A stretch of 58,541 nucleotides of DNA from assembly GCA_002708695.1 (NCBI GenBank), contig PAOZ01000033.1:1-58541 (forward strand). Direction: 5' to 3'. Positions 1 through 26,000 of this stretch are shown here, one piece after another (positions within the stretch are counted from its first letter, which is position 1; every line of letters begins with the position of its first letter). This DNA comes from Methanobacteriota archaeon. GTDB taxonomy: Archaea; Thermoplasmatota; Poseidoniia; Poseidoniales; Thalassarchaeaceae. The position numbers were made by a program, and so were the translations under genes. Below the pieces are notes generated by a model that was given only the letters and a program-made list of their open reading frames with translations, searched no databases and had not been told where the DNA came from.

Positions 1-114
1 AGTTTGGGGGGAGGGAGGGGGAAATAACGAAAATTGCAAAAATCTACCCAGTTTAGGCCTCGCCGGGATTTTTAGGGCACCAACGGGTCCCCCGCTACAC
101 TCTCCGAACTACTC

Positions 115-735
115 ATGTGCTCCTCGCTCCAGCTCTCGCAGATCATCGACCACCTTACCGAGAACAAGTACAGCCGCGACGGCGCTCTGAAGCTCCTGGA
201 GAAGGAGGGACTCCTGCCGAAGAACATGATCCCCAAGGTTAAGGAAGAGAAGCCAGAGTCCCGCTTCGCCTCTCAGGCGGCGCAGGACGCTGCAGACGCT
301 ACCATGCTCGACTTCTCAGAGTGCCAGGGGACCAGCAAGAACGGCAAGATCACCGTGAAGGACGTGAAGGACTTCGCGGCTTCCAAGGTTAAGAAGGTCA
401 ACGCCAGCCCGGCTGCGGTGACCTACGCCAAGGACCACGGACTCAACCTGGAGGAAGTCACTGCCACCGGCAAAGACGGCAAGATCACCATCCAGGACGT
501 GAAGAAGTTCGCCGCTCCCGAGGAGAAGAAGGCTAAGAAACCCAAGCTCTCCCCGGGCGCCCTGAAGCTGGCCAAGCAGTGGCAGCTGGACGAGGACGAC
601 CTTGCGGAGGTGAAGCCAACTGGCTCGGGCGACACCATCAAGAAGTCCGACCTCAAGGAGCTGGTCGAGGCGGCTAAGGAGGCCTGGGCGGCTGAGGAGA
701 CGGACGAGGACTTGGGCACGGACTCTGACGCTTGA
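115..735 (+). CDS. Protein with three tandem E3-binding/PSBD-like (HeH-fold) repeats and an acidic tail
   Basis: Three repeats: ASQAAQDAAD..GTSKNGKITVKDV, ASPAAVTYAKDHGLNLEEVTATGKDGKITIQDV, LSPGALKLAK..PTGSGDTIKKSDL. They match the 2-oxoacid dehydrogenase PSBD pattern (ASP..R..A....+DL..+.GTG..GRI...DV). GC-rich codon usage. Confidence 0.7.
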   Translation: MCSSLQLSQIIDHLTENKYSRDGALKLLEKEGLLPKNMIPKVKEEKPESRFASQAAQDAADATMLDFSECQGTSKNGKITVKDVKDFAASKVKKVNASPAAVTYAKDHGLNLEEVTATGKDGKITIQDVKKFAAPEEKKAKKPKLSPGALKLAKQWQLDEDDLAEVKPTGSGDTIKKSDLKELVEAAKEAWAAEETDEDLGTDSDA

Positions 736-767
736 AGAACATCGACTAAACACCAAAAAACAAAAAA

Positions 768-795
768 CCCCTAAAAAGAGCCCTCTCGAGGGACT
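768..795. terminator. Intergenic hairpin, family B (CCCTAAAAA..GAGCCCT-CTCG-AGGGA)
   Basis: Imperfect stem-loop downstream of the 115..735 stop; related to the hairpin at 1466-1501. Confidence 0.4.
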
Positions 796-831
796 AAAAA
801 CACCGTAACGAAGAAGAGGAGACCATCACCA

Positions 832-1149
832 ATGCTATCAGACCTTCCCAAGGATCTCCATCTTCTCATCTTGGAACATGACGAAGAGAAGAAACGCCTG
901 AAAGAGGAAAACGAGAGGTTGAAGGCTCAGGTGAAGATGACCCAACTTATTCTCCTTGGACCCGAGCGCGTTGGGTGGGCGTCGTCCTTCCCTCGAGAGG
1001 TCGAGGTCCTCCCAAGTGAGATGTACAGATATTATAAAACCTTTGGGATTGTACAGTTAAAAGACAAAGTGAGGAGTTTGGGTCTCTCTGGGTATGGAAA
1101 TTCAAAGCGTGTTCTCATCAAGCGTCTTATCGAATACTACCTTGATTGA
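832..1149 (+). CDS. Hypothetical protein with N-terminal coiled coil and C-terminal Rho-N/SAP-like HeH motif
   Basis: ATG start; C-terminus IVQLKDKVRSLGLSGYGNSKRVLIKRL fits the LK...R.LGL.GY....K..LI pattern. Confidence 0.55.
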   Translation: MLSDLPKDLHLLILEHDEEKKRLKEENERLKAQVKMTQLILLGPERVGWASSFPREVEVLPSEMYRYYKTFGIVQLKDKVRSLGLSGYGNSKRVLIKRLIEYYLD

Positions 1150-1155
1150 GTATAT

Positions 1156-1192
1156 AACCAGCAGCGCTCCTAGGAGCGCATAAGTCTGGGTA
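1156..1192. repeat. Intergenic palindromic repeat, family A copy 1
   Basis: aaccagcagcgctcctaggagcgcataagtctgggta contains the perfect 16-bp palindrome GCGCTCCTAGGAGCGC; 36/37 identical to 3661-3697. Confidence 0.9.
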
Positions 1193-1210
1193 GAGAACTT
1201 AACGAAAACC

Positions 1211-1462
1211 ATGCCTACGCTGAGTCGCGGCAAGCTCATCCCCGCAGCGGTCGCGACCGAGACGTGGAAAACCCTGGTTAAGCCTTACGTCCCCCCAAAG
1301 TGCCTGGAAGTTCTAGATCATTTCACTGAAATGGCTATCGAAGCACACTTCCGAGAGCAAGTGGCAGAAGCTATTCTAGCGTCTTACGGAACAGGGTTGA
1401 CAATCACCGACGCCACTGAAAGCTGGTGGACTGAAGCCAAGCGTGTAAATACACCCCCATAA
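1211..1462 (+). CDS. Hypothetical protein
   Basis: 83-aa ATG-initiated ORF between two intergenic hairpins, co-oriented with its neighbours. Confidence 0.55.
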   Translation: MPTLSRGKLIPAAVATETWKTLVKPYVPPKCLEVLDHFTEMAIEAHFREQVAEAILASYGTGLTITDATESWWTEAKRVNTPP

Positions 1463-1465
1463 ATA

Positions 1466-1501
1466 CCCTAAAAACCATGGTGAGCCCTTTCGAGGGCTCA
1501 C
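1466..1501. terminator. Intergenic hairpin, family B (GTGAGCCCT-TTCG-AGGGCTCAC)
   Basis: Perfect 9-bp stem with a TTCG loop just after the 1462 stop. Confidence 0.55.
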
Positions 1502-1561
1502 AAACCCCGTTTCTTTTTATTATTTAAAGATAAATAATATAAAATTATAATAACGGCAGAA

Positions 1562-2185
1562 ATGAATCCAAATTTACAAATGTATGAAAGAAAAGAAGAC
1601 ATTAACACCGTTCATAGACCAGATTTTAACCCAAGAAGGTACAATTCCATACAAGATAGAGTAAATTCTGATCCAGAGTTCGAAAAAATGTACATCGATA
1701 AATTAATTTCTGAAGGATGGTATAAATTACTTGATAATCGCTCAATTTTATCAGAGGAAATGAAAGGGCGCCATTTTAAATACCGTTTAAATGGAAAAAG
1801 TTTGTCTGGGGCTAAAAAAGGGACATTTAGGAGCGGTGGAATTATCATTGGGAGATCAAATGACGATGACGACGGTAAATATATAATGTATAAGGCTTAT
1901 AACGGAAGAATATTCCCTCTTCAAATCAGTGATATATTAGAAATATATACAAAAGATCCATCTATTAAAATCCAGGGCTCAAAAAAAGAACAGAGTGTGT
2001 CTAAAACTGTATTTTTTAATAGACCAGGTGGTATAACTAAATTCCCTGTTTATTTATTGTCTGAATTATCCGGAGAACGAATTCCTATCTATTACGCAAG
2101 GGATAAATACTCTCAAGAGAGATTTGCGGCGTCTAAAAAATATCAATATGCCCTTAAAACCGGCGATTGGAATTTTTCTACTTAA
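1562..2185 (+). CDS. Hypothetical protein
   Basis: 207-aa ORF with background AT-rich codon usage; TTTAAAG motif upstream. Confidence 0.7.
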   Translation: MNPNLQMYERKEDINTVHRPDFNPRRYNSIQDRVNSDPEFEKMYIDKLISEGWYKLLDNRSILSEEMKGRHFKYRLNGKSLSGAKKGTFRSGGIIIGRSNDDDDGKYIMYKAYNGRIFPLQISDILEIYTKDPSIKIQGSKKEQSVSKTVFFNRPGGITKFPVYLLSELSGERIPIYYARDKYSQERFAASKKYQYALKTGDWNFST

Positions 2186-3649: not shown

Positions 3650-3660
3650 AAATAATATAA

Positions 3661-3697
3661 AACCAGCAGCGCTCCTAGGAGCGCATAAGCCTGGGTA
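3661..3697. repeat. Intergenic palindromic repeat, family A copy 2
   Basis: aaccagcagcgctcctaggagcgcataagcctgggta; one mismatch to copy 1. Confidence 0.9.
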
Positions 3698-3710
3698 AGT
3701 AAATTGAGTA

Positions 3711-4205
3711 ATGGAACAATCAGAGCTATTATTGCTCGAAGGTGAACTTTTAGCGTGGAATGTCGATGGAAGCGGTGACGCGATGGTCGAAGGAGGATCA
3801 TGGATCGGTTACGCAGAGAAAGTTACCGGTCGGAAGCGCGGACGCTGCTCATACTCCGACTGCGTAAACGATTCAGAGGTTGGTGGTCACATCTGGATTT
3901 CCCGTGTTGGTTGTGTTATAGCTCCAATATGTAAGTCGTGCAACTGGCCCGAAAACAAAAAAAGGTGGCAGGGGTCTGGTTCGAAGATGCGCAGTAATAT
4001 TGTAGTTTCGCGGACGGAGTTGACAGACGGTATGAAGATGGCTCCCCGGAGGAGATTGCAGGACCCTCTCTGGAATGACGGTGACCACTATATTGATACT
4101 TCATTACGTATGTGTGTATCGTGTAAAAAAGACATTACATCCAGACCCAGTAATTATACACAGTGTTATAATTGCTGGAAGATAGATAACAAATATAATT
4201 ACTAA
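3711..4205 (+). CDS. Putative zinc-binding hypothetical protein
   Basis: CSYSDC..GGHIW..PICKSCN, plus C-terminal CVSC..QCYNC. Confidence 0.65.
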   Translation: MEQSELLLLEGELLAWNVDGSGDAMVEGGSWIGYAEKVTGRKRGRCSYSDCVNDSEVGGHIWISRVGCVIAPICKSCNWPENKKRWQGSGSKMRSNIVVSRTELTDGMKMAPRRRLQDPLWNDGDHYIDTSLRMCVSCKKDITSRPSNYTQCYNCWKIDNKYNY

Positions 4206-4221
4206 TTAAATATAATAGATA

Positions 4222-4257
4222 AACCAGTAAACTCTTCGGAGTTCTTAAGGCTGAGTA
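4222..4257. repeat. Intergenic hairpin repeat, family A copy 3 (diverged, compensatory changes)
   Basis: aaccagtaaactcttcggagttcttaaggctgagta aligns to copies 1 and 2; inner stem ACTC-TTCG-GAGT. Confidence 0.7.
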
Positions 4258-4260
4258 AAG

Positions 4261-5397
4261 ATGGTTTATCTATTATTTTCTTTAACAGCGTCATATGTTT
4301 TACAATTGAGAAAACCATCTGAATATAGTATTGCAAAAATAAGTACTATGTTAGAACGCACCAAGGGTCAAAAAACAATACCCATAAAAGCTACATTTAA
4401 TCGAGACTATGTTGTTAATGACGAAACAATGAGATGGTATCTTTCTTCTATAGGGTCTAAACGTCTTTTAGAAAAAGATGAAGAAATACAATTAGCATTG
4501 GCTGTAAAACATCTAATAGAATGGAATAATGCCAGGGAAGAGCTCAAAATAAATCTAGGACGTGAACCCACTAAAAAAGAATGGGCTATGAGTTTAGGTT
4601 TTGACGGAACTAATAAAAGTCTTAATAAATTTGAAAAAAGACTGGAACTATTTGAACAATGTAAAGAATGTATGATAACAAGCAATCTTAGGCTTGTAGT
4701 TTCAATAGCAAAAAAATATACTAATAAAGGAGTTAATATACAGGATTTGATTCAAGAAGGTTCAATGGGTTTAATTAAAGCAGTTGAAAAGTTTGATATA
4801 GAGCGTAATTGTCGTTTTTCTACTTATGCACACCATTGGATTAAACAGGCTATAACAAGGGGTGTTGCTAGATATTCTAGACCAATTAGAATTCCTATAT
4901 ATATGTCAGATTGTGCAAATAGTATTAAAAGAGCACGTAAAATTTTTTACTTAGCTAATGGTTACTCACCTACGGATAATGAACTCGCTGGTATATTAGG
5001 AATATCGGAGTCAAAATTTCGAAAAGCCTTTGATTCTAATAGACTCTTGTTATCTTTAGATGCACCATATTATCAAAACATATTAACAAATGAGGAAAAA
5101 ATTTGGATTGATATAATTCAAGACAAAAAAAGTGTTCCAGAAGACTCTTTTCAAGATAGTCAACTAAATCAAGAACTTTATAAAATTATAACAAATGTTC
5201 TTAATACACAAGAACGAGAAATATTATTTTTAAAATATGGTTTGATGGGTAGAGATACTCTTACCATGGATCAAATTAGCAAAATTTATCAGTGTCCAAA
5301 AGATACGATACAGAAGATACATTTAAGATCTTTAAGAAGACTTAGAAATACACCCCAAAAAAGTAAATTGTTTTTACCCGAATATAAGTTTGATTAA
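4261..5397 (+). CDS. Sigma-70 family RNA polymerase sigma factor, plastid/cyanobacterial type, with putative bipartite plastid-targeting leader
   Basis: Region 1.2 MRWYLSSIGSKRLLEKDEEIQLA; region 2 SNLRLVVSIAKKY..QDLIQEGSMGLIKAVEKFD..RFSTYAHHWIKQAI; region 3 PTDNELAGILGIS..SLDAP; region 4 LNTQEREILFLKYGL; cyanobacterial/plastid-type LGREPTKKEWA insert. Confidence 0.93.
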   Translation: MVYLLFSLTASYVLQLRKPSEYSIAKISTMLERTKGQKTIPIKATFNRDYVVNDETMRWYLSSIGSKRLLEKDEEIQLALAVKHLIEWNNAREELKINLGREPTKKEWAMSLGFDGTNKSLNKFEKRLELFEQCKECMITSNLRLVVSIAKKYTNKGVNIQDLIQEGSMGLIKAVEKFDIERNCRFSTYAHHWIKQAITRGVARYSRPIRIPIYMSDCANSIKRARKIFYLANGYSPTDNELAGILGISESKFRKAFDSNRLLLSLDAPYYQNILTNEEKIWIDIIQDKKSVPEDSFQDSQLNQELYKIITNVLNTQEREILFLKYGLMGRDTLTMDQISKIYQCPKDTIQKIHLRSLRRLRNTPQKSKLFLPEYKFD

Positions 5398-5770: not shown

Positions 5771-6265
5771 ATGTCTGTTCCACGTTTAGCTGACAAAGCA
5801 TCTTTAACTCTTCTATATAACAATAATAATGAGGTAGACTTTACACCATATGTTTCGTGTTGTAAAAATATACAACGAGTATTTACCAAATACATTAAAG
5901 AAAAGAAAGCAGTAATTTATATTCAAAAGATTTTTAGAGGATTTATTTGGAGAGATGTCTTATTTGGTTATTTTCCCATGTCGGATGATGTAGATTTTGT
6001 ATCAAGAATAGTAAAAGTATTGAGACCTGAATGGTCTCTTCCAGCATGGAGAGTTTACATTGAAGCAGGAAGAATCCCCCCTTGGAGATGTTCCTGGTCA
6101 AGTCTTACACCCGATAGAAGCCCTTGGTATGAATGGGGTAGATTTTATGATAGGTGGAGTGTAGCGTTTGTTTTTTATAAAAGACCTTATTTGGCCAGAA
6201 GAAAATTATATTTTAGAACTGCTATTAGAAATTTCTGGATAGAAAGGAAAATATATGTACTTTAA
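5771..6265 (+). CDS. IQ-motif protein, paralog of 6303..6818
   Basis: AVIYIQKIFRGFIWR fits IQxxxRGxxxR; N-terminus SVPRLADKASLTLLYN is shared with the next ORF. Confidence 0.7.
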   Translation: MSVPRLADKASLTLLYNNNNEVDFTPYVSCCKNIQRVFTKYIKEKKAVIYIQKIFRGFIWRDVLFGYFPMSDDVDFVSRIVKVLRPEWSLPAWRVYIEAGRIPPWRCSWSSLTPDRSPWYEWGRFYDRWSVAFVFYKRPYLARRKLYFRTAIRNFWIERKIYVL

Positions 6266-6267
6266 AT

Positions 6268-6296
6268 AAACTCTTAGGAGTTCATAAAATAAGGTA
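6268..6296. repeat. Family A hairpin repeat copy 5 (degenerate)
   Basis: aaactcttaggagttcataaaataaggta, 6 nt before the ATG at 6303. Confidence 0.55.
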
Positions 6297-6302
6297 AAGA
6301 AA

Positions 6303-6818
6303 ATGCATATTCCTACCCTGGCAGATAAAGCAGCTCTTTCTCTATTCTATAATAGCAGTAGTGTAATAGATTTTTCACCTTTTGATGATTTTGCAACTAT
6401 TATACAGAAATTTTATAAATTATACATTCTAAAGGTTCGAGCAAGTGTTTATATTCAAAAGATTTATAGGGGATATTCGTGGAGAATTTGTATATATGAT
6501 TTCAGAGGATCTCATAGGGATTACATTTGTAGAGTAGTAGAAAAACTAAGACCTGAATGGCCAATAAGAGGGTGGAATTCTTTTGTAGATCGTGATGGTA
6601 TCAGAGTTTGTCGTAGATATTTACCTGAAGGAGTTGTTCCTTGGTCTCAGTGGGCTAATTTTTATGATACCTGGAATACTGCATTTTGTTATCATCTCAG
6701 ACCTAATTTATCCAAGAGAAGAATGAATTTTCATGCAACCCTGTTTCACACGCGAGAGAAGTATAGATATAGCAGAGCTCCCGACAGATATTATACCCCA
6801 GTTCCGTGGATGGCATAA
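6303..6818 (+). CDS. IQ-motif protein, paralog of 5771..6265
   Basis: ASVYIQKIYRGYSWR IQ motif; LRPEW, PW..W..FYD.W..AF and RP.L..R shared with the upstream ORF. Confidence 0.7.
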   Translation: MHIPTLADKAALSLFYNSSSVIDFSPFDDFATIIQKFYKLYILKVRASVYIQKIYRGYSWRICIYDFRGSHRDYICRVVEKLRPEWPIRGWNSFVDRDGIRVCRRYLPEGVVPWSQWANFYDTWNTAFCYHLRPNLSKRRMNFHATLFHTREKYRYSRAPDRYYTPVPWMA

Positions 6819-6831
6819 TTGATTAGAATAT

Positions 6832-6872
6832 TTAATTACGACTCCTAGGAGTTTAAAGGAGGGCGTAATTAA
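6832..6872. repeat. Family A hairpin repeat copy 6
   Basis: Outer stem ttaattacg/cgtaattaa encloses the inner palindrome actcctaggagt with a 3' bulge. Confidence 0.65.
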
Positions 6873-6889
6873 GTATTACATTAAAAAGA

Positions 6890-7093
6890 ATGATTGTAAA
6901 TATCATAGGAATTGGTTCATTTCTGTATCTTATTGGTTTTTATTTTGGTTGTACACCGACTACCAGAACTAAAATACAACCGAATTTTTTTAAGACGGGG
7001 GGTTGTCCTTATAATCAAACTACAAAAGATCCAATGGTATTAAAATTAAGAAAGTGTAATATTAGTGTTCGTCGTAGAATTAATGATGAATAA
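6890..7093 (+). CDS. Small hypothetical protein with hydrophobic N-terminus
   Basis: 67-aa ATG ORF following hairpin copy 6. Confidence 0.45.
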   Translation: MIVNIIGIGSFLYLIGFYFGCTPTTRTKIQPNFFKTGGCPYNQTTKDPMVLKLRKCNISVRRRINDE

Positions 7094-7101
7094 AAGGGGA
7101 C

Positions 7102-7174
7102 TAGGGCACATGGGGATCGAACCCATGACCACAAGATTAAAAGTCTTGCGCTCTGCCTACTGAGCTAGTGCCCC
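7102..7174 (-). tRNA. trnK: tRNA-Lys (anticodon UUU)
   Basis: Minus strand folds as GGGGCAC TA GCTC AGTAGGCA GAGC G CAAGA CT-TTT-AA TCTTG TGGTC ATGGG TTCGATC CCCAT GTGCCCT A; CCA not encoded. Confidence 0.96.
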
Positions 7175-7204
7175 TTTTATTTATCTTAAATCTTATATCA
7201 GTAT

Positions 7205-7399
7205 TTATACCATATTAAAATCAGAAAACTCTCTAGGACCAAATGGGAAACTATTGGATGATGTATTATTGTATAAAATGTCATCAAGTTTAATAGCATA
7301 ATCAATTTCTTGTTTCTTTGAAAGATTATCGTGAGCATATAGCCATGCGAACCATATAATAAGATATGATATAAAAATTTTAAACGGAGGTGGATCCAT
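7205..7399 (-). CDS. Small single-TM hypothetical protein
   Basis: ATG start, one hydrophobic helix, CTTAAAG motif upstream. Confidence 0.5.
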   Translation of the reverse strand: MDPPPFKIFISYLIIWFAWLYAHDNLSKKQEIDYAIKLDDILYNNTSSNSFPFGPREFSDFNMV

Positions 7400-7433
7400 T
7401 GTTATCTATTAATACATACATATTGTCTTTAAG

Positions 7434-7889
7434 TTATTTTCTTTTATTTTTACCCTGAAATGCATCTACTATTTTTCTTAGTTCATCTCTTGCTTCCTTA
7501 GTAAATTTAAATTCTCCCTCATCATCTTCTACAATAAAATCATGAATTGAATCATCGCTATCAGCCTCTGATTCTTCAGAAGTTTCTTCATCTGTATCTG
7601 TATCTATTACGTCTACTTCATTTACACGATCCCATTCTCTACAAATGTGTCTAGCTATATGTCTACAAGGACAATCACAATTACAACCCCAGTTATTATA
7701 TTCTTCTGGTTTTGGAGACGCGGGTAAATCACACTCTAGAGTGGGGAAATTAAATTTATGTCTTTTACAACACTTACAATTAACTAATTCGGCGGGTAGT
7801 GTTTCTAGATCTTTACATGTGTTCATTTTTTTATCAAAATACGTTTCGGCGTCCATATTTTTAAGTTTCAGATAATCTTTGAAATTCAT
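7434..7889 (-). CDS. Cys/His-rich hypothetical protein with acidic tract, paralog of 3227..3649
   Basis: CKCCKRH and CDCPCRHIARHICR motifs. Confidence 0.7.
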   Translation of the reverse strand: MNFKDYLKLKNMDAETYFDKKMNTCKDLETLPAELVNCKCCKRHKFNFPTLECDLPASPKPEEYNNWGCNCDCPCRHIARHICREWDRVNEVDVIDTDTDEETSEESEADSDDSIHDFIVEDDEGEFKFTKEARDELRKIVDAFQGKNKRK

Positions 7890-7926
7890 TATACATTATG
7901 TTATAATATATATAATGCCTTTAAAT

Positions 7927-8547
7927 CTATTCCGAATCTACAATAGAACACATAATTTCCTTTTCAATTGGTTCTTCTTCTAGGTCGGAATCGGAAGATA
8001 CTTCAAAATTTCTCCAATCCATTCCGTGTCTAAAACAGTAGTAATTATTTGCCCCATCTGGTTTTGTCGTTCCAGGATGCTTACACGGATCTCCCGATTT
8101 GTTCATTCCACAACACTTATTAACAGTCTTTTCCTTACTTAGATTTTTATACCAAGGTTCTCCTTGATTACTAGCTACAGTAGTATTTTTTTTGGGTTCC
8201 TTTTTGGTTGTTAGCTTATTAGCCTTTAGGTATGTATTTATATCACTCTTAGTAATCTTACCATCCTTTAGTGTCCCGATGTCAAAATCGTCAAGTGTCA
8301 AATTGTTTTCTTGTGCATATTCTGCGGCAATTTTAGTAGCAAATCTCTTAACAGGGGGACAACCAGGGGAATTGTCAGATGTTGTTTTCTTTACATTGGT
8401 TTTCTTTACACTTACATTCACATTGGTATCATTGATTAGTTTATGGGCTATTTCAATAAAAGCATCATTAAAAAGTCCTAGCATTTTACCCATAGCTTCA
8501 TCATTTAGATTGTATTCAGTTTGAAATTCTTTGAATCTAGCCTCCAT
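7927..8547 (-). CDS. Hypothetical protein with one PSBD/HeH-like repeat and a C-terminal zinc-finger-like motif
   Basis: FATKIAAEYAQENNLTLDDFDIGTLKDGKITKSDI resembles the 115..735 repeats; CCGMNKSGDPC..YCFRH. Start moved from TTG 8556 to ATG 8547. Confidence 0.65.
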   Translation of the reverse strand: MEARFKEFQTEYNLNDEAMGKMLGLFNDAFIEIAHKLINDTNVNVSVKKTNVKKTTSDNSPGCPPVKRFATKIAAEYAQENNLTLDDFDIGTLKDGKITKSDINTYLKANKLTTKKEPKKNTTVASNQGEPWYKNLSKEKTVNKCCGMNKSGDPCKHPGTTKPDGANNYYCFRHGMDWRNFEVSSDSDLEEEPIEKEIMCSIVDSE

Positions 8548-8665
8548 TGTGCCCAATATATTACTTTATTAATTATTTTTTTAAGTTAAATCTTTTTTTG
8601 TAAAATTTATAATTCTTTTTTCTCTAAATAGAGATTAAGAATTATAAATAAATTTGAATTTAGAC

Positions 8666-9235
8666 CTAGAACAGTTGCTTACCCTGTGCAAGTTCTTGGG
8701 CAACAATTCCGACAAATGCAATCATGGCTAGCCTGCCGTTGCTTAGTTCCTTATTCAAAAGATCATTACTAATGCTTGTCATATTATACTTTCCAAGGTT
8801 TCCTGGTTGATACCCTTGTTCAAGTGTAAAAGTCTTATTTGGGTCAATTCCGTCATCGGTAAACGGATTTACCCAACCCACGCCCATGCGAAGAGTTTCA
8901 TAATTTAGAAGAGTAAACCAGAAAGGTACTTGGTGATTAAAATCAAGAGAGCTTAGATAATTAATACCTAGTGTAGAATCGGTTTGATCCAAAACTTCTA
9001 GAAGAGGAATTCCAATTGTTGCTAGCATGGCTGTGCGACCATGCATAAGCTCTGCTTCGCGAATAAACTTAAGCCTGTTATCTGGAGTATTTTCTACTAC
9101 ATTCAATGGGTCAAAATTCTTAAGAGGTTCAATAGACCCTACATAGCGCCACCCGCTGTAGGATGGTGTTGAGATAGAAGATGAGGGTACAAGACCAAGG
9201 GGTGAAAACAGATTCATTGCAATTACAGCCGACAT
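8666..9235 (-). CDS. Light-harvesting complex (chlorophyll a/c-binding) protein, LHCX/LI818-like
   Basis: FDPL; helix 1 REAELMHGRTAMLA; helix 2 YETLRMGVGWVNP; YQPGNL; helix 3 KELSNGRLAMIAFVGIVAQE. Confidence 0.93.
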   Translation of the reverse strand: MSAVIAMNLFSPLGLVPSSSISTPSYSGWRYVGSIEPLKNFDPLNVVENTPDNRLKFIREAELMHGRTAMLATIGIPLLEVLDQTDSTLGINYLSSLDFNHQVPFWFTLLNYETLRMGVGWVNPFTDDGIDPNKTFTLEQGYQPGNLGKYNMTSISNDLLNKELSNGRLAMIAFVGIVAQELAQGKQLF

Positions 9236-9276
9236 TCTTTATTATAATATACTATATTGTATTACTTTATACTCAT

Positions 9277-12200
9277 TTATTTTTCTTTTTTTACACGTGT
9301 TTTCTTTTGTTTAGCCGGAATAATGTCTAACCATAGTTCTGGGATATTGTCCATCATTGGTGCGAATATAGTTTCGATAACTGATTTAAATTGGTGTTCA
9401 AAGTAGTAAAGATAATCAATTGGTATATTGTTTTTTCTAACATATTCTGGATCTTCTACCTTTTCAAATTGTTTTGTACTGTTGTATGTTGCAAATACAA
9501 AAGAAATGCGGTCTCCCGAATTTACAACGTCCATTCTATCTCTTTCTGCTCTTTTTCTAGCTAAAGCTACGTGGGGAAGATTAGCCGGACATTGTTTGAA
9601 TGTAGTTAGTTTTGAACAATTAGGACAGGTGTGTTCTCTCTTTAGAAAATCCTCTAAGATAGTTTCTTTCGGATTGGTGTCTTCAATCGGTTTTTTCCAA
9701 AGAACTGTGATGTCCATTTCTTTTTTACCAGTTACGTTTATTTCATAATATGTTTTAGAACAATCATTACATACGGCTTTACGATCAAATGCATAACCAG
9801 TTCTTAGAGATTTTGACAACAAAAGATCATTCATCGGAATTTCTCCGTTTATTAGCTTTCTGATTTTATCCCTAGCAAATTCTTTAGATGTTTCTATAAG
9901 TTCGTCTACTGTATCAAATGTGTAATTTAGGACCTTTTCATTTAGGAAGATGTATTCGAAAATCTTTTTAGCATTGTTTCTTACAAACGCGCAATTGTCT
10001 CGCCTTACAACCTGAATTCCTTTATAATCTATGTAGTCATATTTTAGAGGGTTTGTCCAGAATAGACTTGCATATCTCTTTTTAGAATACAATATGAAAG
10101 GATACATAACCTTCTCAAACTCGAGTTCAATAGGTTTTTTAAATGTAGCCGAGATCCTATCTGCACATTCTGGTGCAACCTTAAATACGTAATTCATATG
10201 ATCTTGACCCTTTAAGTCGCTCTTGAACTTTACATAAATAGAATCTGTATCACCATAAACAACTTCACAATCATACCATTCTTCAGCACATTTCTTCGAA
10301 TGTGCAATCATGTTTCTACCACTTGCAGTTACAGCCGCCGCAATCTTTTTATTAGGAAGCCTTCCATATTTTGCACCTGTAAAACCATAAATACTATTCA
10401 TAGAAACCTTGATAGCAAGTTGTACCCCATTTAGAACAGCATACAAAGAGTCTTCTGGGTTTAATGTTTTCATTTGTTTGCGAATGTCTTTTCTTTCTTT
10501 CCACAGGCGTTGTAGAATCTTAGGCATAATACCTTGTTGATTTTGTACAAATTTAACAGGGCCTTCTCCAAAGTCTATCGATTCGTATGTAATGTCTTCT
10601 AGATTATCATACTCTGGATTATCTACTATTGTTGAGTAATCATAGTTGTGAGCAATCATAATAGAAGGGTATAGACTAGCAAAATCAAGACCTGCAATTG
10701 GTTGGAAATGAGCACCAGGTGTAGCATCTAGAACTGTTGCACCCACAAAATTATCTTCATCATCGTCTATTTCTCCGGCGGGTTTGTAATCTGTGGTTGG
10801 AATAAGAAAATCTTCTTTTTTAGTCTCGTATGCAATTTGAGTATGAACCCTGATTTGCTGACCTCTAAGTTCAATATCTTGCATAGAAACCATAGTAATA
10901 TTAGACATACCAATCATATTAGTTATAATTCTGAGTTTAAGAATGAGTTCTATAAGAAGCCATGTATCTTGCGCGCAATACTTGACTACAAGCGCTATTT
11001 TATCTTTAGTTGATGTGTTATATTTAAAAAGATCTGCTGGACTAAGGTCGTCCTTAGAATCTCCAATGAAGTGTTCAGAAACGCTATTCAATTTGTAAGA
11101 TTCTAGTTTATGTTCTTTCTTAATAATAAACATAAGATCAAATTGGGTAATACCATGTGTTTTCATGTATTTCATGGTATTGTCTCCATAAGCAGATGTG
11201 CTAAGACGACTTTCAAAAAACTCAGCTGGTTTAGAATTTATTCTACTAAGATTTTGTAGAACATATTCTATATCAAGTACTTTAGCTCTTGCGTATAAAT
11301 AACTCCAATCGAAACCATATCCGTTATATTGAACTAGAATGTCAGGATCTGTATCTTTAATGAATTTTACCCATCCTTCAATTAGTTCTTTTTCTGTGTC
11401 GTAAGTTTCTATTATTACACCATCTACTGGATCACAATCATTATCAATCGGGCTTTTAATGGTAACAACATGTTTAACTTGTTCTTTTGTTCCAAATTTA
11501 TACAAACTAGTGCCAATCTGAGTAACAATGTCAAGTGGGTTTTCTGGGTTAGGGAATTCATTTAAATTTAGATGTCTAGATGAGTAAGAAAATGCCTCAA
11601 TATCCCAAGATCCGATAGTCAAGTTACAGATGTCCTGTTTATCATATGGTCTAACATTTTGATAATGACAAATGTAACTATGTTGACATCTTGACATATC
11701 CATGTCTTGAGTAAGGGCTTTCGCTTTTACCCACCCAGCCATTTTAATTTCCATTTTGTGTGTAAATCTCAAATAAGGATCTATATTAGATTCATATAGA
11801 TCAAATTTTAGAGGAGATACCTTATCAATATTAGAAATCTTCGGAAGTTTTGATTTTTCTTTAGGATTTAGTATGTATCTTATCCTATTAAATGTATATA
11901 GATTCTTACAAACAAATCTCAAGAATTTAAATTTTTTACCATTAGTAAAACCTTTGTATTTTTTACGTTCGACGAGATCAACTGAGATGAGATCGTTTTT
12001 TGATTTGAATAGTTTATTACGAATAAATCTTTCTACTTCCTTTTTTGAGTAATCAGTGAAGGAGTTTTGATGTTTATCAGGAACGAGTGCAAATAAATAA
12101 GGTCTATAATTTTCAAATCTAACACAGACAGATTCTCCTAATTCATTTACACCAAATGTGTAAATGTGATATCTTTTATCAACTACATTAGGATCAGGTT

Positions 12201-12321
12201 CGTCGTCACCTGAGTAGTCTTGTTCGATATCTTCATCAAATGCTTCCCAAGATAAAATTTGGTACACCAATTCATTGTGATCAACCTCTTCTGTATACTG
12301 AGGACGTTTAAATGGTAACAT
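9277..12321 (-). CDS. polB: Family B DNA polymerase
   Basis: Exonuclease motifs WDIE, YNGYGFD, YCAQD; polymerase motifs DFASLYPS, KVSMNSIYG, YGDTDS, KKRY. No intein seen. Confidence 0.99.
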   Translation of the reverse strand: MLPFKRPQYTEEVDHNELVYQILSWEAFDEDIEQDYSGDDEPDPNVVDKRYHIYTFGVNELGESVCVRFENYRPYLFALVPDKHQNSFTDYSKKEVERFIRNKLFKSKNDLISVDLVERKKYKGFTNGKKFKFLRFVCKNLYTFNRIRYILNPKEKSKLPKISNIDKVSPLKFDLYESNIDPYLRFTHKMEIKMAGWVKAKALTQDMDMSRCQHSYICHYQNVRPYDKQDICNLTIGSWDIEAFSYSSRHLNLNEFPNPENPLDIVTQIGTSLYKFGTKEQVKHVVTIKSPIDNDCDPVDGVIIETYDTEKELIEGWVKFIKDTDPDILVQYNGYGFDWSYLYARAKVLDIEYVLQNLSRINSKPAEFFESRLSTSAYGDNTMKYMKTHGITQFDLMFIIKKEHKLESYKLNSVSEHFIGDSKDDLSPADLFKYNTSTKDKIALVVKYCAQDTWLLIELILKLRIITNMIGMSNITMVSMQDIELRGQQIRVHTQIAYETKKEDFLIPTTDYKPAGEIDDDEDNFVGATVLDATPGAHFQPIAGLDFASLYPSIMIAHNYDYSTIVDNPEYDNLEDITYESIDFGEGPVKFVQNQQGIMPKILQRLWKERKDIRKQMKTLNPEDSLYAVLNGVQLAIKVSMNSIYGFTGAKYGRLPNKKIAAAVTASGRNMIAHSKKCAEEWYDCEVVYGDTDSIYVKFKSDLKGQDHMNYVFKVAPECADRISATFKKPIELEFEKVMYPFILYSKKRYASLFWTNPLKYDYIDYKGIQVVRRDNCAFVRNNAKKIFEYIFLNEKVLNYTFDTVDELIETSKEFARDKIRKLINGEIPMNDLLLSKSLRTGYAFDRKAVCNDCSKTYYEINVTGKKEMDITVLWKKPIEDTNPKETILEDFLKREHTCPNCSKLTTFKQCPANLPHVALARKRAERDRMDVVNSGDRISFVFATYNSTKQFEKVEDPEYVRKNNIPIDYLYYFEHQFKSVIETIFAPMMDNIPELWLDIIPAKQKKTRVKKEK

Positions 12322-23070: not shown

Positions 23071-26000
23071 TCATTTCATTAATAAAAATAGTATCAAGAG
23101 AACTATAACTACCCCAGCTCCTATCCCTCCATACTTAATCATCTTGTCTTTATTTTCAACTTTTTTCTTCTCTTCTTCTATTTTATTTTCAAGAACTGTA
23201 TTTTTACCTTTAAATATATCTATTTCTTTTTTACATTCATCTTTTTCTTCTTTTCTAATTTGTTCTGCATCTACGGGTACGTTATTCTTCGTCTTTTCCG
23301 CTTCTAATTCAGCTTTTAAATTAATTATCTCTTCGCCCAAGTCTTCTATCTGTTCCATCTTCAAATCCACAGTCTCGCCGCTCTTCTCCGCCATGCCGAC
23401 GATAGCCTCCGTCGCCTCCGCCTCCGACGCCAGCAGCTGATCCTGCAGTAGTTGGTTGGTCCCTCGAGCCGCCTCCAGCTGCGCCTTCAGTGACTCCACT
23501 TCGGCGCTAGAGGGACGCGCCGCCAGTTGCGCCTCCAGCTCAGCGACGCGCGCCGCCGCCGCGCCCGCCGCCGCCTTAACGTCAGTATCACTTACACCTT
23601 CTGATTCTTTAATAACATTATTTAATTTTTTTATAAACTGAACTGCAAATGTTATAGGTTTAGTATTTTTATATCTACTATCTAACAATTCTCTAAATGT
23701 TTCAATAATCCACTCACTCTCTCCTTTCATATGGAGACTAAGATACGCCATAAGCATTTTAAGCCCTTGCATTTCACTTTCAAAATTTGGATGATTTGCT
23801 ATAGTCACCCACACGGCGATATATTTGGACATTGGCGATGTAGAAGCATCAAGCTGAGGAACATTTTCTCCAAATTCATCTCTATTTTTTTCGTTGAATC
23901 TTTTGAGGCCTTGCTCAAAAGTGAGCTCAGAGGCCTTACCAGCATTGAAAATTTCTATTATTTCGGGAGGAAATGGTTCATCTTTTATAATCGCAGTGAT
24001 TAATAGTTTAGAAATCCTTTTAAATATTTCAACATTCTGTTTTGAAGGAAATGCAGGGACATCTTGTGCCCTCCCGGTCCCTACCTCTACCCCTACTCCT
24101 TCCCCTGTCCCTGTCGCTACCCCTACCCCTCCCCGTAGTTCGTTCAAGACTGTAATTTTCATTTCTTCTACTTGCCTGACATCCCTACCGGTCACCGCCC
24201 CCCTTGGTCTACTGTCAAGTTCCGCCAATTCCACTACTTCCTTGGTTAGAGGATGAAATCTCTGTGCAAAAGCTTCGTATTCAATATTAGTGAAACCTTC
24301 ATTTCTGGCTACCCCGCGAATAATGTCTGCCACGGCTAGCTGATTAGGATTAAGAGAATTGAGTATATTGAGCGTGGCGACAGTGGTGCCGGAGGGCGGG
24401 GGCGTCATGAATACAGCGGGGCCCCAATCGTCATCGTCGGGATCGACGTCACCCTCATCGTCAGTATCTTCAGGGGAAACGTTTCCGGTGTCAACCAGTG
24501 TGAAATTGCCGCCGCCTTTGTTTACAACGGCGACTGATGCGGTGCCTGGTACGGTGAGAGCATATTTGTAGTGATCTATTGTCAAGTCTACCCAACTATC
24601 CATCTCCTGATTGAGTACAGTAAAATACGCATCAGGATCATGGTCATGAAGTACAGTGTGATTTCCACAAACGTATACCAGGTTTACAAGTCTTATATTA
24701 TCAACCAATACCACTATGAGATTATTTATTATTTCTCTGAAATTGTTAACAAGTTCATTAAATTTCTGTTCCGTTAGTCGTCCGTCCTTATTCTTTGCCC
24801 TCTCTTCTTCGATGGCTAAATCCAGGCGCTTCCCAGAATTTGAAATAATATCCAAAAATGCTAATGTGATATGATTCATTAATTTAATTAACCATTTTCG
24901 TCTTATTTCCTTTTTAGATGCATTTTTTAAATTTCCATTAAGAATTTCAAATGTTAGTTCCTTGTATGCCTGTTTAGAGTGGTATAGTATATTAACGTTA
25001 CTCGCTTCAAGTGATTCTTGCCCGTCGGTAAAGGGTGTGCTTGCTTGCCCCTTGTTCCAATTCCAAGTATCTCTACCGGGTCCTGGTAGGTCTTCTAAAT
25101 TTCCACGGAACTTGTCTTCGAAGACATATTCGTCTAACGTAGTCTTCCAACACATATAGTGTTTTTCATCGTTCCACATTATGTTGTCGTATTTTAACCA
25201 CCACTTGTCGTCGGTAGACTTCTGGTTGATCTTCTGCGTACAGGATTTAGCGGCATTAAACCAATAGTCTATATCCTTTCCTTCAACTTCAGGTGGTGGG
25301 GCGCAGGCTTCGCCGCCACCCCAATTCTTTGGTAATTTACTTAAATATTCGCCGGTGATATTAGCATTGCCTAATCTGAACTGGTACACATTAGAAATTC
25401 CACAGTCAAAGTTATCTTTAAACCATTGTATATGACCATATAACTCCGATTTACCTTTGTACTTTCCAGTTAATAATTTGAAACCAAGGACATCCCACTC
25501 ACCAAGATTAGGCCTATACAATTGTGCAATGTTTATTTCAAAAACTTTCCCAGCAATCTCGGTGCCATAGTTGATGATCGGGTTTTGTTTAACAAATTCT
25601 TCCTGTGTAACTCCCTGCTGCCTCCGGTCAAAATTAGAGACAGCAATTATATTAGAATTTTCAAATTGTTCTTCCTTAGGAAAGACATTCGTGATACCCA
25701 CAGGAGCCCCTTTCATGTAACCACTTAAAATTCCAGGTATTCGATCGATTCCGGTGAAAAACAATTCGTCCCCACCTGGGGAAGCGTACTCGGTTATAAA
25801 ATCCGGCTCTGAGGGAATGGCGCACGCGCGGAACTTGTTGACCGGTGTAGTTGCTGGAAAAGCCACTGCGTTCATGATGGCCTCATTGGCTCTCTCTTTG
25901 TTGGTCATCGCCGGGTCGATGGAAGCAACGACTTTTTTGTTAGGAATATTTAGTGATTGATTGTTGGCCGGCCCTATCGAATCCGTTGGAATGGAAGCAA

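What the first reader, a model, noticed from the sequence alone, without database searches (positions are those of the whole stretch)
8666..9235. Viral light-harvesting protein resembling photoprotective LHCX/LI818
All three LHC helices with chlorophyll ligands are intact. The E..R..GW..P signature after helix 2 is typical of LHCX/LI818 proteins, which drive non-photochemical quenching (established). Codon usage matches the virus, so the gene looks domesticated, and it sits next to polB. LHC genes have been noted before in giant-virus metagenomes, so the novelty is mainly its pairing with a sigma factor.
Basis: partly seen in the sequence, partly recalled or inferred. Interest (0 to 1): 0.62.

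Follow-up and report, generated by a model that had tools for sequence, protein, structure and literature searches.

The report
Giant-virus LHCX-like light-harvesting protein
A giant-virus contig carries an intact, conserved chlorophyll-binding antenna gene whose closest cellular relatives are the algal photoprotective LHCX/LI818 proteins; such viral genes are already known as a class, and this one lacks the acid-sensing residues of the cellular proteins.

Summary
The ORF at 8666-9235 (minus strand, 189 aa) is real and is a bona fide LHC protein: Pfam PF00504 E=1e-23, an AF2 model with three membrane helices, and all canonical Glu/His/Asn/Arg pigment ligands present.

The window is a giant-virus (NCLDV) contig misbinned into a bacterial MAG. 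The gene lies directly downstream of polB in four closely related viral lineages and evolves under purifying selection (dN/dS 0.09-0.17).

It belongs to a large clade known only from metagenomes, with more than 230 proteins of about 180 aa. When added to the Dittami 2010 reference alignment, this clade falls inside or beside the LI818 (LHCX/LHCSR) superclade (UFBoot 100, SH-aLRT 99, also under a C20 mixture model). All 43 viral representatives score best against an LI818 profile. The E..R...GW..P motif is LI818-specific in the reference set. AU tests are inconclusive.

It is not a canonical LHCX. It lacks the GPAxx[H/Q] loop signature, the second FDPLGL motif, and the C-terminal lumenal carboxylates (LHCSR3 Glu221/Glu224) needed for pH-triggered quenching.

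The N-termini look like ER signal peptides, which implies hosts with complex plastids.

The sigma-factor "pairing" is not conserved. The sigma gene is a variable, host-derived plastid-type cassette, and is itself the more novel item. Viral LHCs are already published, so this is a new member of a known kind.

The parts
8666..9235 (-). LHC-superfamily CDS, 189 aa, member of a virus-specific LI818-related clade
   Evidence: ORF. Pfam PF00504 E=1.2e-23. dN/dS 0.09-0.17 against relatives. Trees.
9152..9235 (-). N-terminal presequence (aa 1-28): a hydrophobic, signal-peptide-like stretch (MSAVIAMNLFSPLGLV) followed by an S/T/P-rich spacer; a putative bipartite plastid-targeting signal
   Evidence: Of 115 family members, 91% have a hydrophobic 9-residue window of KD>=1.6 within about 25 aa, almost no acidic residues, and often a small residue followed by Phe. 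Low pLDDT in the model. Function is inferred.
8990..9082 (-). Membrane helix 1 (aa 52-82) with the E62-x-x-H65-G-R67 chlorophyll-binding/ion-pair motif
   Evidence: AF2 secondary structure. E62 is invariant, H65 and R67 nearly invariant, in 53 relatives.
8876..8941 (-). Membrane helix 2 (aa 99-120) carrying E113/R116
   Evidence: AF2 model; conservation.
8864..8899 (-). E113..R116...G120-W121..P124 motif (ETLRMGVGWVNP), an LI818-type signature
   Evidence: Present in 27/173 reference LHCs, all in the LI818 clade. Present in 106/117 close viral relatives and 118/120 diatom LHCX1-like proteins.
8684..8767 (-). Membrane helix 3 (aa 157-184) with E163-x-x-N166-G-R168 and Q180. The protein ends 5 residues later (…AQELAQGKQLF), with no amphipathic helix D or acidic tail.
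   Evidence: AF2 model. Alignment with Cre_24/Ptr_25. Tail statistics.
9236..9276 (-). 41-bp A+T-rich spacer between the polB stop and the LHC start; presumed promoter region
   Evidence: Sequence. No recognised motif found; function is inferred.
9277..12321 (-). Family-B DNA polymerase (viral hallmark), immediately upstream and co-oriented
   Evidence: Pfam DNA_pol_B 9e-100 and exo domain. The same adjacency occurs in L002, L003, L007 and L008.
4261..5397 (+). Sigma-70 factor of cyanobacterial/plastid RpoD type with a host-like N-terminal signal peptide. A variable accessory cassette, not part of a conserved unit with the LHC gene.
   Evidence: Pfam r1.2/r2/r3/r4. TIGR02997 at 264 bits. Absent in L002/L003. 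58% identical from residue 1 to GC-rich cellular homologs.

Best explanation
The gene encodes a functional, virus-encoded pigment-binding protein of the LHC superfamily. It belongs to a large virus-specific subfamily that descends from, or is sister to, the LI818 (LHCX/LHCSR) stress-antenna lineage of algae with chlorophyll a/c.

Proposed sequence of events:
1. The protein is made in the infected alga.
2. It enters the ER through its short N-terminal signal peptide and is passed on into a complex (secondary, red-type) plastid.
3. It inserts into the thylakoid as a three-helix protein that binds chlorophyll a (possibly also c) and xanthophyll at the conserved Glu/His/Asn/Arg sites.
4. There it most likely replaces or supplements host LHCX-type proteins, whose supply is presumed to fail during infection. 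It would act as a safe sink for excitation energy, keeping photosystems working and limiting photo-oxidative damage until lysis.

This would be the eukaryotic-virus counterpart of cyanophage hli genes. The protein lacks the lumenal C-terminal carboxylates that make LHCSR3 pH-switchable. It is therefore predicted to act constitutively, or through a partner, rather than as a pH-gated quencher.

Shown here: the gene, its viral context, the fold, ligand conservation, purifying selection, LI818 affinity, the missing pH-sensor and GPA signature, and signal-peptide-like N-termini. Inferred: import route, pigment content, quenching role and host type. The confidence given (0.45) is for the whole statement including the photoprotective role; that it is a functional viral LHC related to LI818 I put at about 0.8.
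For: - Family and fold: Pfam PF00504. AF2 LHC fold with pLDDT 79.7, and all Foldseek top hits are LHCs. Ligand residues are invariant or nearly invariant in 53 relatives.
- Selection: dN/dS 0.09-0.17.
- Viral context: polB, Topo II, A32, primase-type AEP and other viral genes on the window. The same polB-LHC arrangement occurs on independent contigs L002, L003, L007 and L008.
- Family source: more than 230 homologs, none from MMETSP/EukProt transcriptomes. Of the homologs looked up, only one cluster carried a taxon label ('viral metagenome'), and several sit on contigs of 100-440 kb.
- LI818 affinity: the LI818 superclade including the viral clade has UFBoot 100 / SH-aLRT 99 and SH-aLRT 99 under C20 PMSF. 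43/43 viral representatives score best against the LI818 HMM, with a margin of about 13 bits for the query. The E..R...GW..P motif is restricted to LI818 in the reference set.
- Targeting: signal-peptide-like N-termini in 91% of members.
- pH sensing: the LHCSR3 pH sensors are Asp117/Glu221/Glu224 (PMC4817166). The viral tail ends before the Glu224 position, and about 90% of viral proteins have no acidic residue there, against 0% of cellular LI818 proteins.
- Literature: an LI818 role in stress response and NPQ is established (PMC3008699).
Against: - No expression, localisation or pigment data exist.
- The LI818 loop signature GPAxx[H/Q] is absent (0/159) and the second FDPLGL carotenoid-pocket motif is lost. 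Pigment binding and quenching chemistry may therefore differ from LHCX.
- AU tests do not reject the viral clade being outside cellular LI818 (p=0.33), or even joined to LHCF (p=0.175). The alignment has only 131 columns.
- The best solved-structure sequence matches are PSI-associated antennae (FCPI-3, VCPI-1, Lhca4), not the one LI818 chain in the PDB. That chain is a divergent long-branch member (Tps_21).
- Published authors proposed increased light harvesting instead (PMC7136201).
Confidence: 0.45

Rival explanations
1. Antenna booster. The viral LHC is an ordinary light-harvesting antenna, possibly docking to PSI. It would enlarge the absorption cross-section and raise ATP supply (for example by cyclic electron flow) for virus production, compensating for host LHC shut-down.
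For: - All chlorophyll ligands are conserved.
- No pH-sensing carboxylates are present.
- The best sequence and structure matches among solved structures are PSI antenna subunits: FCPI-3, VCPI-1, Lhcf6 of PSI-FCPI, and Lhca4.
- This is the function suggested in the literature for NCLDV chlorophyll a/b-binding proteins (PMC7136201).
Against: - Trees and profile scores place it with LI818 rather than LHCF, LHCR or Lhca.
- PtLHCX1 itself also scores well against the same PSI subunits, so those hits are not discriminating.
- Loss of the second FDPLGL motif is unusual for bulk antennae.
Confidence: 0.22
2. Pigment scavenger or assembly helper. The protein would transiently bind chlorophyll released during thylakoid remodelling or degradation in infected cells (an ELIP/LIL/HLIP-like role). 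This would prevent photosensitisation, without acting as an antenna or regulated quencher.
For: - The architecture is small and minimal (about 160 aa mature), with truncated termini and altered carotenoid-pocket motifs.
- Related giant viruses carry chlorophyllase and other pigment-related genes (co-PelV).
- A TspO (tetrapyrrole-binding) gene lies on the related sigma-bearing contig L011.
Against: - The full three-helix LHC with the complete ligand set is conserved under strong purifying selection. That is more than one-helix scavengers need.
- Its phylogenetic affinity is to LI818, not to ELIP/LIL families.
Confidence: 0.12
3. Dominant-negative decoy. A pH-insensitive LHCX look-alike would occupy host LHCX docking sites and block NPQ, so that absorbed energy keeps flowing to photochemistry for the benefit of the virus.
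For: - LI818 affinity combined with systematic loss of the C-terminal acidic residues required for pH-triggered quenching in LHCSR3.
Against: - Blocking photoprotection would raise ROS and risk premature host death.
- There is no evidence on docking.
- The divergent lumenal loop (GINYLS instead of GPAxxH) argues against precise mimicry.
Confidence: 0.08
4. Not viral. The gene would be a cellular (algal) LHC gene that ended up on the contig through chimeric assembly or binning.
For: - The contig sits in a bacterial MAG bin.
- The contig's first ~2 kb has aberrant G+C, including an 86% GC3 ORF.
- The LHC gene's codon usage is atypical for the window.
Against: - The gene is flanked on both sides by viral genes and lies 41 bp from polB.
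- The same arrangement recurs on at least 5 independent contigs from different samples.
- GC3 is 0.33 and there are no introns.
- The whole clade is absent from algal transcriptome sources.
Confidence: 0.02

Closest known systems
LI818 / LHCX / LHCSR stress-related light-harvesting proteins (e.g. Phaeodactylum LHCX1 = Ptr_25, Chlamydomonas LHCSR3)
   Same: - Three-helix LHC fold with the same Glu/His/Asn/Arg ligands.
- Helix-2 E..R...GW..P motif.
- Short helix1-helix2 loop.
- Groups with this superclade in ML trees and in profile scoring.
   Different: - No G-P-A-x-x-[H/Q] loop signature; it has G-I-N-Y-L-S instead.
- No second FDPLGL motif; it has YQPGNLGxY instead.
- The C-terminus ends about 5 residues earlier and lacks the lumenal acidic residues (LHCSR3 Glu221/Glu224; the Glu of LHCX1 'ILENL').
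- Forms its own virus-only clade.
- Encoded by a virus, with an A+T-rich gene.
Published giant-virus LHC genes (CeV, PelV-1/co-PelV, GVMAGs of Schulz 2020, NCLDV MAGs of Moniruzzaman 2020)
   Same: - The same kind of gene: PF00504 proteins encoded by marine Imitervirales-type viruses.
- Loci L002 and L005 are GVMAG contigs.
- The literature describes deep-branching viral clades and a Mesomimiviridae + SAR cluster.
   Different: - I could not obtain the CeV or PelV sequences, so co-membership of the same clade is not shown directly.
- The papers I could read do not assign the viral clade to LI818 and do not mention the missing pH-sensor residues or the signal-peptide-like N-termini; two keyword searches found no paper that does.
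Cyanophage hli (high-light-inducible, one-helix LHC-like) and psbA genes
   Same: Works like: a virus carries a host-derived member of the extended LHC family, presumed to keep the photosynthetic apparatus protected and running during infection.
   Different: - Hli proteins are one-helix proteins of cyanobacteria.
- This is a three-helix eukaryotic LHC that must be imported into a plastid.
- There is no homology beyond the shared chlorophyll-binding helix motif (from established knowledge, not tested here).
Haptophyte/dinoflagellate LI818-like group (Ehu_05/10/11, Karlodinium Kmi_01, polyprotein P0121)
   Same: Nearest cellular neighbours of the viral clade within the LI818 superclade in the LG+G4 trees (36-row subclade, 95/94).
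   Different: - They keep both FDPLGL motifs.
- They lack the E..R...GW..P motif (0/5).
- They are longer or occur as polyproteins.
- The grouping changes under the mixture model.

Membership tests
LHC superfamily (Pfam PF00504, chlorophyll a/b-binding) | Significant match to the family profile over the whole domain | tested here: met
   E=1.2e-23, 84.8 bits against a cut-off of 22.3; profile positions 10-162 of 162.
LHC superfamily (Pfam PF00504, chlorophyll a/b-binding) | Three membrane helices, with helices 1 and 3 carrying ExxHGR / ExxNGR motifs that form the crossed Glu-Arg ion pairs and ligate chlorophyll | tested here: met
   AF2 helices at 52-82, 99-120 and 157-184. E62/H65/R67 and E163/N166/R168 are present and conserved. 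All Foldseek top hits are LHC chains.
LHC superfamily (Pfam PF00504, chlorophyll a/b-binding) | Actual binding of chlorophyll and carotenoid | not testable with these tools
   Needs in-vitro reconstitution or purification from infected cells.
LI818 / LHCX / LHCSR family | Phylogenetic placement within the LI818 clade that contains PtLHCX1 (Ptr_25), Cre_23/24, Ppa_46, Sco_01 and Esi_02 | tested here: inconclusive
   A 66-row clade (all LI818 references, the viral clade and LI818-like metagenome sequences, and nothing else) has UFBoot 100 / SH-aLRT 99 and SH-aLRT 99 under C20 PMSF. However, AU tests do not reject cellular LI818 being monophyletic without the viral clade (p=0.33), nor viral+LHCF (p=0.175). 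The data fit either a nested or a sister position.
LI818 / LHCX / LHCSR family | Conserved G-P-A-x-x-[H/Q] signature in the helix1-helix2 loop ('all LI818 proteins', Dittami 2010, PMC3008699) | tested here: not met
   0/117 close and 0/42 deep viral members, against 118/120 diatom LHCX1-like proteins. The query has L-G-I-N-Y-L-S at that place.
LI818 / LHCX / LHCSR family | Helix-2 motif E..R...GW..P | tested here: met
   The query has ETLRMGVGWVNP. The motif is in 27/173 references, all LI818, and in 106/117 close viral relatives, but only 8/42 deeper viral members.
LI818 / LHCX / LHCSR family | Lumen-exposed protonatable residues that trigger quenching (LHCSR3 Asp117, Glu221, Glu224) | tested here: not met
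   In the alignment Glu221 corresponds to Gln187, and the protein ends before the Glu224 position. About 90% of viral proteins have no acidic residue in this tail, against 0% of cellular LI818. The Asp117 equivalent is uncertain: the loop has D83, D86 and D97. Residue roles are from PMC4817166.
LI818 / LHCX / LHCSR family | Confers energy-dependent NPQ in vivo | not testable with these tools
   Needs complementation of an lhcx/lhcsr mutant and fluorescence measurements.
Virus-specific LHC clade of marine giant viruses | About 180-aa protein with the family signatures F/W-x-Y-x-G-S…FDPLN, GINYLS, GWxNPF and YQPGN, encoded on NCLDV contigs | tested here: met
   The query carries all of them. The clade is monophyletic at 100/98. 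Members lie on contigs of up to 440 kb and on IMG/VR and GVMAG contigs.

The most novel reading that the evidence does not exclude
The virus would carry a small 'plastid take-over' gene set. One part is an LI818-derived, pH-insensitive LHC that acts as a constitutive excitation-energy sink. In this lineage the other part is a host-derived plastid sigma-70 factor. Both keep ER-type signal peptides for import into a complex plastid. Together they would let a giant virus reprogram plastid transcription (via the plastid-encoded RNA polymerase) and photoprotection at the same time. I found no paper describing a giant-virus-encoded plastid sigma factor.
Probability: 0.3. Interest if true: 0.8.

Novelty: new member of a known kind. 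Interest (0 to 1): 0.45.

Why it matters
Viral LHC genes are widespread in ocean giant viruses, but their function is untested.

Showing that this clade derives from the photoprotective LI818/LHCX lineage, yet has systematically lost the pH-sensing tail, turns a vague 'light-harvesting AMG' into a concrete, testable hypothesis: a constitutive, virus-supplied quencher as against an antenna booster.

The signal-peptide-like N-termini point to hosts with complex red-type plastids.

The neighbouring host-derived plastid sigma factor suggests that some of these viruses also manipulate plastid transcription. If confirmed, that would be new biology.

Tried and rejected
- **Solved-structure sequences.** I tried to pull labelled LHC reference sequences from the PDB. 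Multi-domain LHCI polyproteins of entry 9vfj (PSI-LHCI of Euglena gracilis) occupied the alignment slots, so only one LI818 chain (8iwh_7) was recovered. Ranking by PDB score does not discriminate, because PtLHCX1 hits the same PSI antennae.
- **Source names.** Names in the protein collection were almost all 'hypothetical', so they gave no subfamily labels.
- **CeV paper.** The CeV genome paper (PMC5487555) is not held.
- **Large tree.** A 239-row IQ-TREE run timed out and was replaced by a 112-row set.
- **AU tests.** They lacked power with 131 columns. I did not run the LHCR, LHCZ or CAB alternatives.
- **Promoter motif.** A search for the Mimivirus-type early promoter AAAATTGA upstream of the genes found nothing informative.
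- **Sigma factor in IMG/VR.** The scan found no close relative.
- **Earlier findings.** The search of earlier findings returned nothing.
- **Capsid gene.** No NCLDV capsid gene is present elsewhere in the bin.
- **Cellular-contaminant reading.** Considered and rejected because of the conserved viral synteny.

Full report
**What is there**

An ATG-to-stop ORF of 189 codons lies at 8666..9235 on the minus strand. It matches Pfam Chloroa_b-bind (PF00504) over essentially the whole profile: E=1.2e-23, 84.8 bits, cut-off 22.3. It also hits hundreds of solved LHC chains.

An AlphaFold2 model built on 53 relatives (mean pLDDT 79.7, pTM 0.73) shows the LHC architecture:
- helix 1 at residues 52-82
- a short lumenal helix at 90-96
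- helix 2 at 99-120
- helix 3 at 157-184

All top Foldseek matches in the PDB are LHC subunits. The canonical ligand and ion-pair residues are present and invariant or nearly invariant across the family: E62/H65/R67, E113/R116 and E163/N166/R168. Q180 is also present in the query, but this position varies in relatives (many have Ser). Pairwise dN/dS against five relatives is 0.09-0.17. The gene is intact and under purifying selection.

**Context**

The window is a giant-virus contig. It carries:
- family-B DNA polymerase (9277..12321, directly upstream and co-oriented)
- topoisomerase II
- an A32-type packaging ATPase
- a TFIIB-like protein
- XPG/FEN and a YqaJ recombinase
- an AEP primase domain
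- dCMP deaminase
- patatin
- a thioredoxin

The contig is C33 of a 1.77-Mb, roughly 40% G+C 'prokaryotic' bin, whereas the window is 33% G+C. It was therefore misbinned. No NCLDV capsid gene is present elsewhere in the bin.

**Synteny**

Three other viral lineages have polB 94-96% identical to the window's: L002, L003 and L007/L008. In all of them the LHC gene sits in the same place next to polB. In L001, polB is only 74% identical yet the LHC is 97% identical. Two neighbouring ORFs (w6303, w5771) also match L001 best, while polB, w12351, w7927 and w7434 match L002/L003 best. The region is therefore a mosaic, and the LHC gene appears to have moved between viral lineages.

**Codon usage**

The gene is A+T-biased, with GC3 of 0.33. 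It is nevertheless among the least typical genes of the contig. The window median GC3 is 0.23, which puts the LHC gene at rank 38 of 42. Its RSCU correlation with the rest of the window is 0.25, the fourth lowest of 42 ORFs.

**The family**

A search of 5.8 billion proteins found at least 237 homologs of about 180 aa. None came from algal transcriptome sources, and several lie on contigs of 100-440 kb. Five IMG/VR loci, two of them GVMAGs, encode relatives.

An exhaustive search of 1.84 billion representatives and a first tree showed an 85-row clade of short proteins set apart from everything else. For its deeper members, cluster look-ups returned only metagenomic sources. One had the UniRef label 'viral metagenome', and contigs reached 258 kb.

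Giant-virus LHC genes are already published:
- CeV, PelV-1 and co-PelV

**Subfamily**

For labelled references I used the alignment of Dittami et al. 2010 (PMC3008699, Additional file 3). I transcribed 173 of its sequences. That paper names Ptr_25 as PtLHCX1 and names Cre_23, Esi_02, Sco_01 and Ppa_46 as LI818 proteins. A database protein retrieved with an LHCX1 probe (P0271) is identical to Ptr_25 over all 131 columns. Its best single-domain PDB hit is the 'LI818 clade' chain 8iwh_7.

I added 43 viral representatives and 23 other metagenomic LHCs with MAFFT --add. Results:

| Analysis | Viral clade | LI818 superclade including the viral clade |
|---|---|---|
| FastTree, 239 rows | monophyletic, 98 | 108-row group containing all LI818 references, 90 |
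| IQ-TREE LG+G4, 1000 UFBoot, 112 rows | 100/98 | 66 rows (every LI818 reference, the viral clade, LI818-like metagenome sequences, nothing else), 100/99 |
| IQ-TREE LG+C20+F+G4 PMSF | SH-aLRT 96 | same 66-row clade, SH-aLRT 99 |

Two further lines agree:
- Profile HMMs were built from seven reference groups. All 43 viral proteins score best against the LI818 profile. The query scores 78.6 bits, against 65.7 for LHCR, 65.3 for LHCZ, 59.5 for CAB and 35.2 for LHCF.
It is also in 118/120 diatom LHCX1-like proteins and 106/117 close viral relatives.

Caveats:
- The alignment has only 131 columns.
- An AU test does not reject cellular LI818 being monophyletic without the viral clade (p=0.33), nor a constrained viral+LHCF clade (p=0.175).
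- The position within the superclade changes with the model. Under LG+G4 it lies nearest a haptophyte/dinoflagellate group, Bigelowiella, and Ehu_04/06.

My reading is 'LI818-derived or sister to LI818', with about 0.8 confidence.

**Why it is not a canonical LHCX/LHCSR**

- Dittami et al. state that all LI818 proteins carry G-P-A-x-x-[H/Q] in the helix1-helix2 loop. This is found in 118/120 LHCX1-like proteins but in 0/159 viral ones, which mostly have G-I-N-Y-L-S.
- The second FDPLGL motif before helix 3 is replaced by YQPGNLGxY in all viral members (0/159 against 117/120).
- The viral proteins end about 18 residues after NGRLAM, against 23 in LHCX.
- About 90% of viral proteins have no acidic residue in that lumenal tail, while every cellular LI818 examined has at least one.
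- In LHCSR3, Asp117, Glu221 and Glu224 are the residues required for pH-triggered quenching (PMC4817166). In the alignment Glu221 corresponds to Gln187 of the query, and the protein stops before the Glu224 position.

LHCSR3-style pH gating is therefore unlikely. I propose a constitutive or partner-dependent role. An antenna-booster role is the main rival.

**Targeting**

The roughly 25 residues before the conserved mature start are hydrophobic in 91% of 115 members. They are nearly free of acidic residues and are S/T-rich. They often end in a small residue followed by Phe, as in …VSA|FLNV and …SA|FVPSP.

This looks like an ER signal peptide followed by a very short transit-like spacer, the arrangement used for plastids surrounded by extra membranes. 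That interpretation rests on established knowledge of the ASAFAP-type motif and was not tested here. It points to hosts with complex red-type plastids rather than green algae.

**The sigma factor**

The ORF at 4261..5397 has sigma-70 regions 1.2, 2, 3 and 4. It scores best against the cyanobacterial RpoD model TIGR02997, at 264 bits, which is below that model's cut-off.

It is not a conserved partner of the LHC gene:
- L002 and L003 lack it, together with the adjacent ORF w3711.
- L007/L008 have it (95% identical by tblastn), with two extra genes between it and the LHC.
- An 84% homolog (L011) lies among unrelated genes (TspO, ubiquitin, dNK, a helicase), with no LHC within 7 kb.

Its nearest non-viral-looking relatives are about 55-60% identical and have G+C-rich-type amino-acid composition. 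They align from residue 1, including the N-terminal hydrophobic segment: MVYLLFSLTA in the virus against MVHLLLSLTA. This suggests capture of a host nuclear gene for a plastid-targeted sigma factor, signal peptide included. Three keyword searches found no paper describing such a gene in a giant virus. This is the more novel observation in the window, but it was only partly followed up.

**Verdict**

The LI818 resemblance is supported at the level of descent, but not at the level of canonical membership or demonstrated NPQ function. The sigma 'pairing' is incidental in position, although both genes plausibly target the plastid. As a viral LHC, this is a new member of a known kind. Its value lies in the sharpened, testable functional hypothesis and in the neighbouring sigma factor.

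Noticed in passing
window 4261-5397 (+); L007 2432-3565; L011 6974-8110: A giant-virus-encoded sigma-70 factor of cyanobacterial/plastid RpoD type. It is 58% identical, from residue 1 and including the N-terminal signal-peptide-like segment, to cellular-looking metagenomic homologs. It is present in only some closely related viruses and sits at different genomic positions. It could redirect the plastid-encoded RNA polymerase. No literature was found.
   Followed up: partly
window 5771-9235 versus L001, L002, L003: Mosaic ancestry. The LHC gene (97%), w6303 (94%) and w5771 (78%) are closest to L001, whose polB is only 74% identical. In contrast, polB, w12351, w7927 and w7434 are closest to L002/L003 (polB 94-95%). 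This suggests recombination or gene exchange between co-occurring giant viruses involving the LHC gene.
   Followed up: partly
window 1-2000, ORF 115-735 (+): The left end of the contig has about 48% G+C. Its first ORF is 61% G+C (GC3 86%) and has two E3-binding (peripheral subunit-binding) domains, unlike the rest of the 33% G+C contig. This may be a chimeric assembly end or a very recent cellular acquisition. The ORF next to the LHC gene (7927-8556) also has a weak hit to the E3-binding region of PDH E2.
   Followed up: no
whole window = contig C33 of bin G000: A 58.5-kb NCLDV contig is binned in a 1.77-Mb, ~40% G+C prokaryotic MAG listed as 0.94% contaminated. Several other contigs of 27-33% G+C (C2, C27, C31, C40, C43, C46) may also be foreign. 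No NCLDV capsid gene is present in the bin.
   Followed up: partly
window 4205-4260, 3650-3710, 6266-6302: G+C-rich hairpins (for example ACTCTTCGGAGT and GCGCTCCTAGGAGCGC) lie just upstream of ORFs 3711, 4261 (sigma) and 6303. They may be 3'-end-forming hairpins of the preceding transcripts, as described for mimiviruses (recalled from memory, not tested).
   Followed up: no
window 49330-58413 (+) and 23071-26625 (-): Two very large ORFs (3027 aa and 1184 aa) have no Pfam match.
   Followed up: no
L011 5667-6059: The related sigma-bearing viral contig encodes a TspO/MBR (tetrapyrrole-binding) protein, an ion-channel domain protein and ubiquitin. These are further candidates for organelle or pigment manipulation.
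   Followed up: no
P0121, P0123, P0124 and others: Among the best-scoring cellular-type relatives are LHC polyproteins with 3-13 tandem LHC units (up to 1307 aa). The sampled units of P0121, P0150 and P0135 group with the haptophyte/dinoflagellate LI818-like set; those of P0123, P0124 and P0126 do not.
   Followed up: partly
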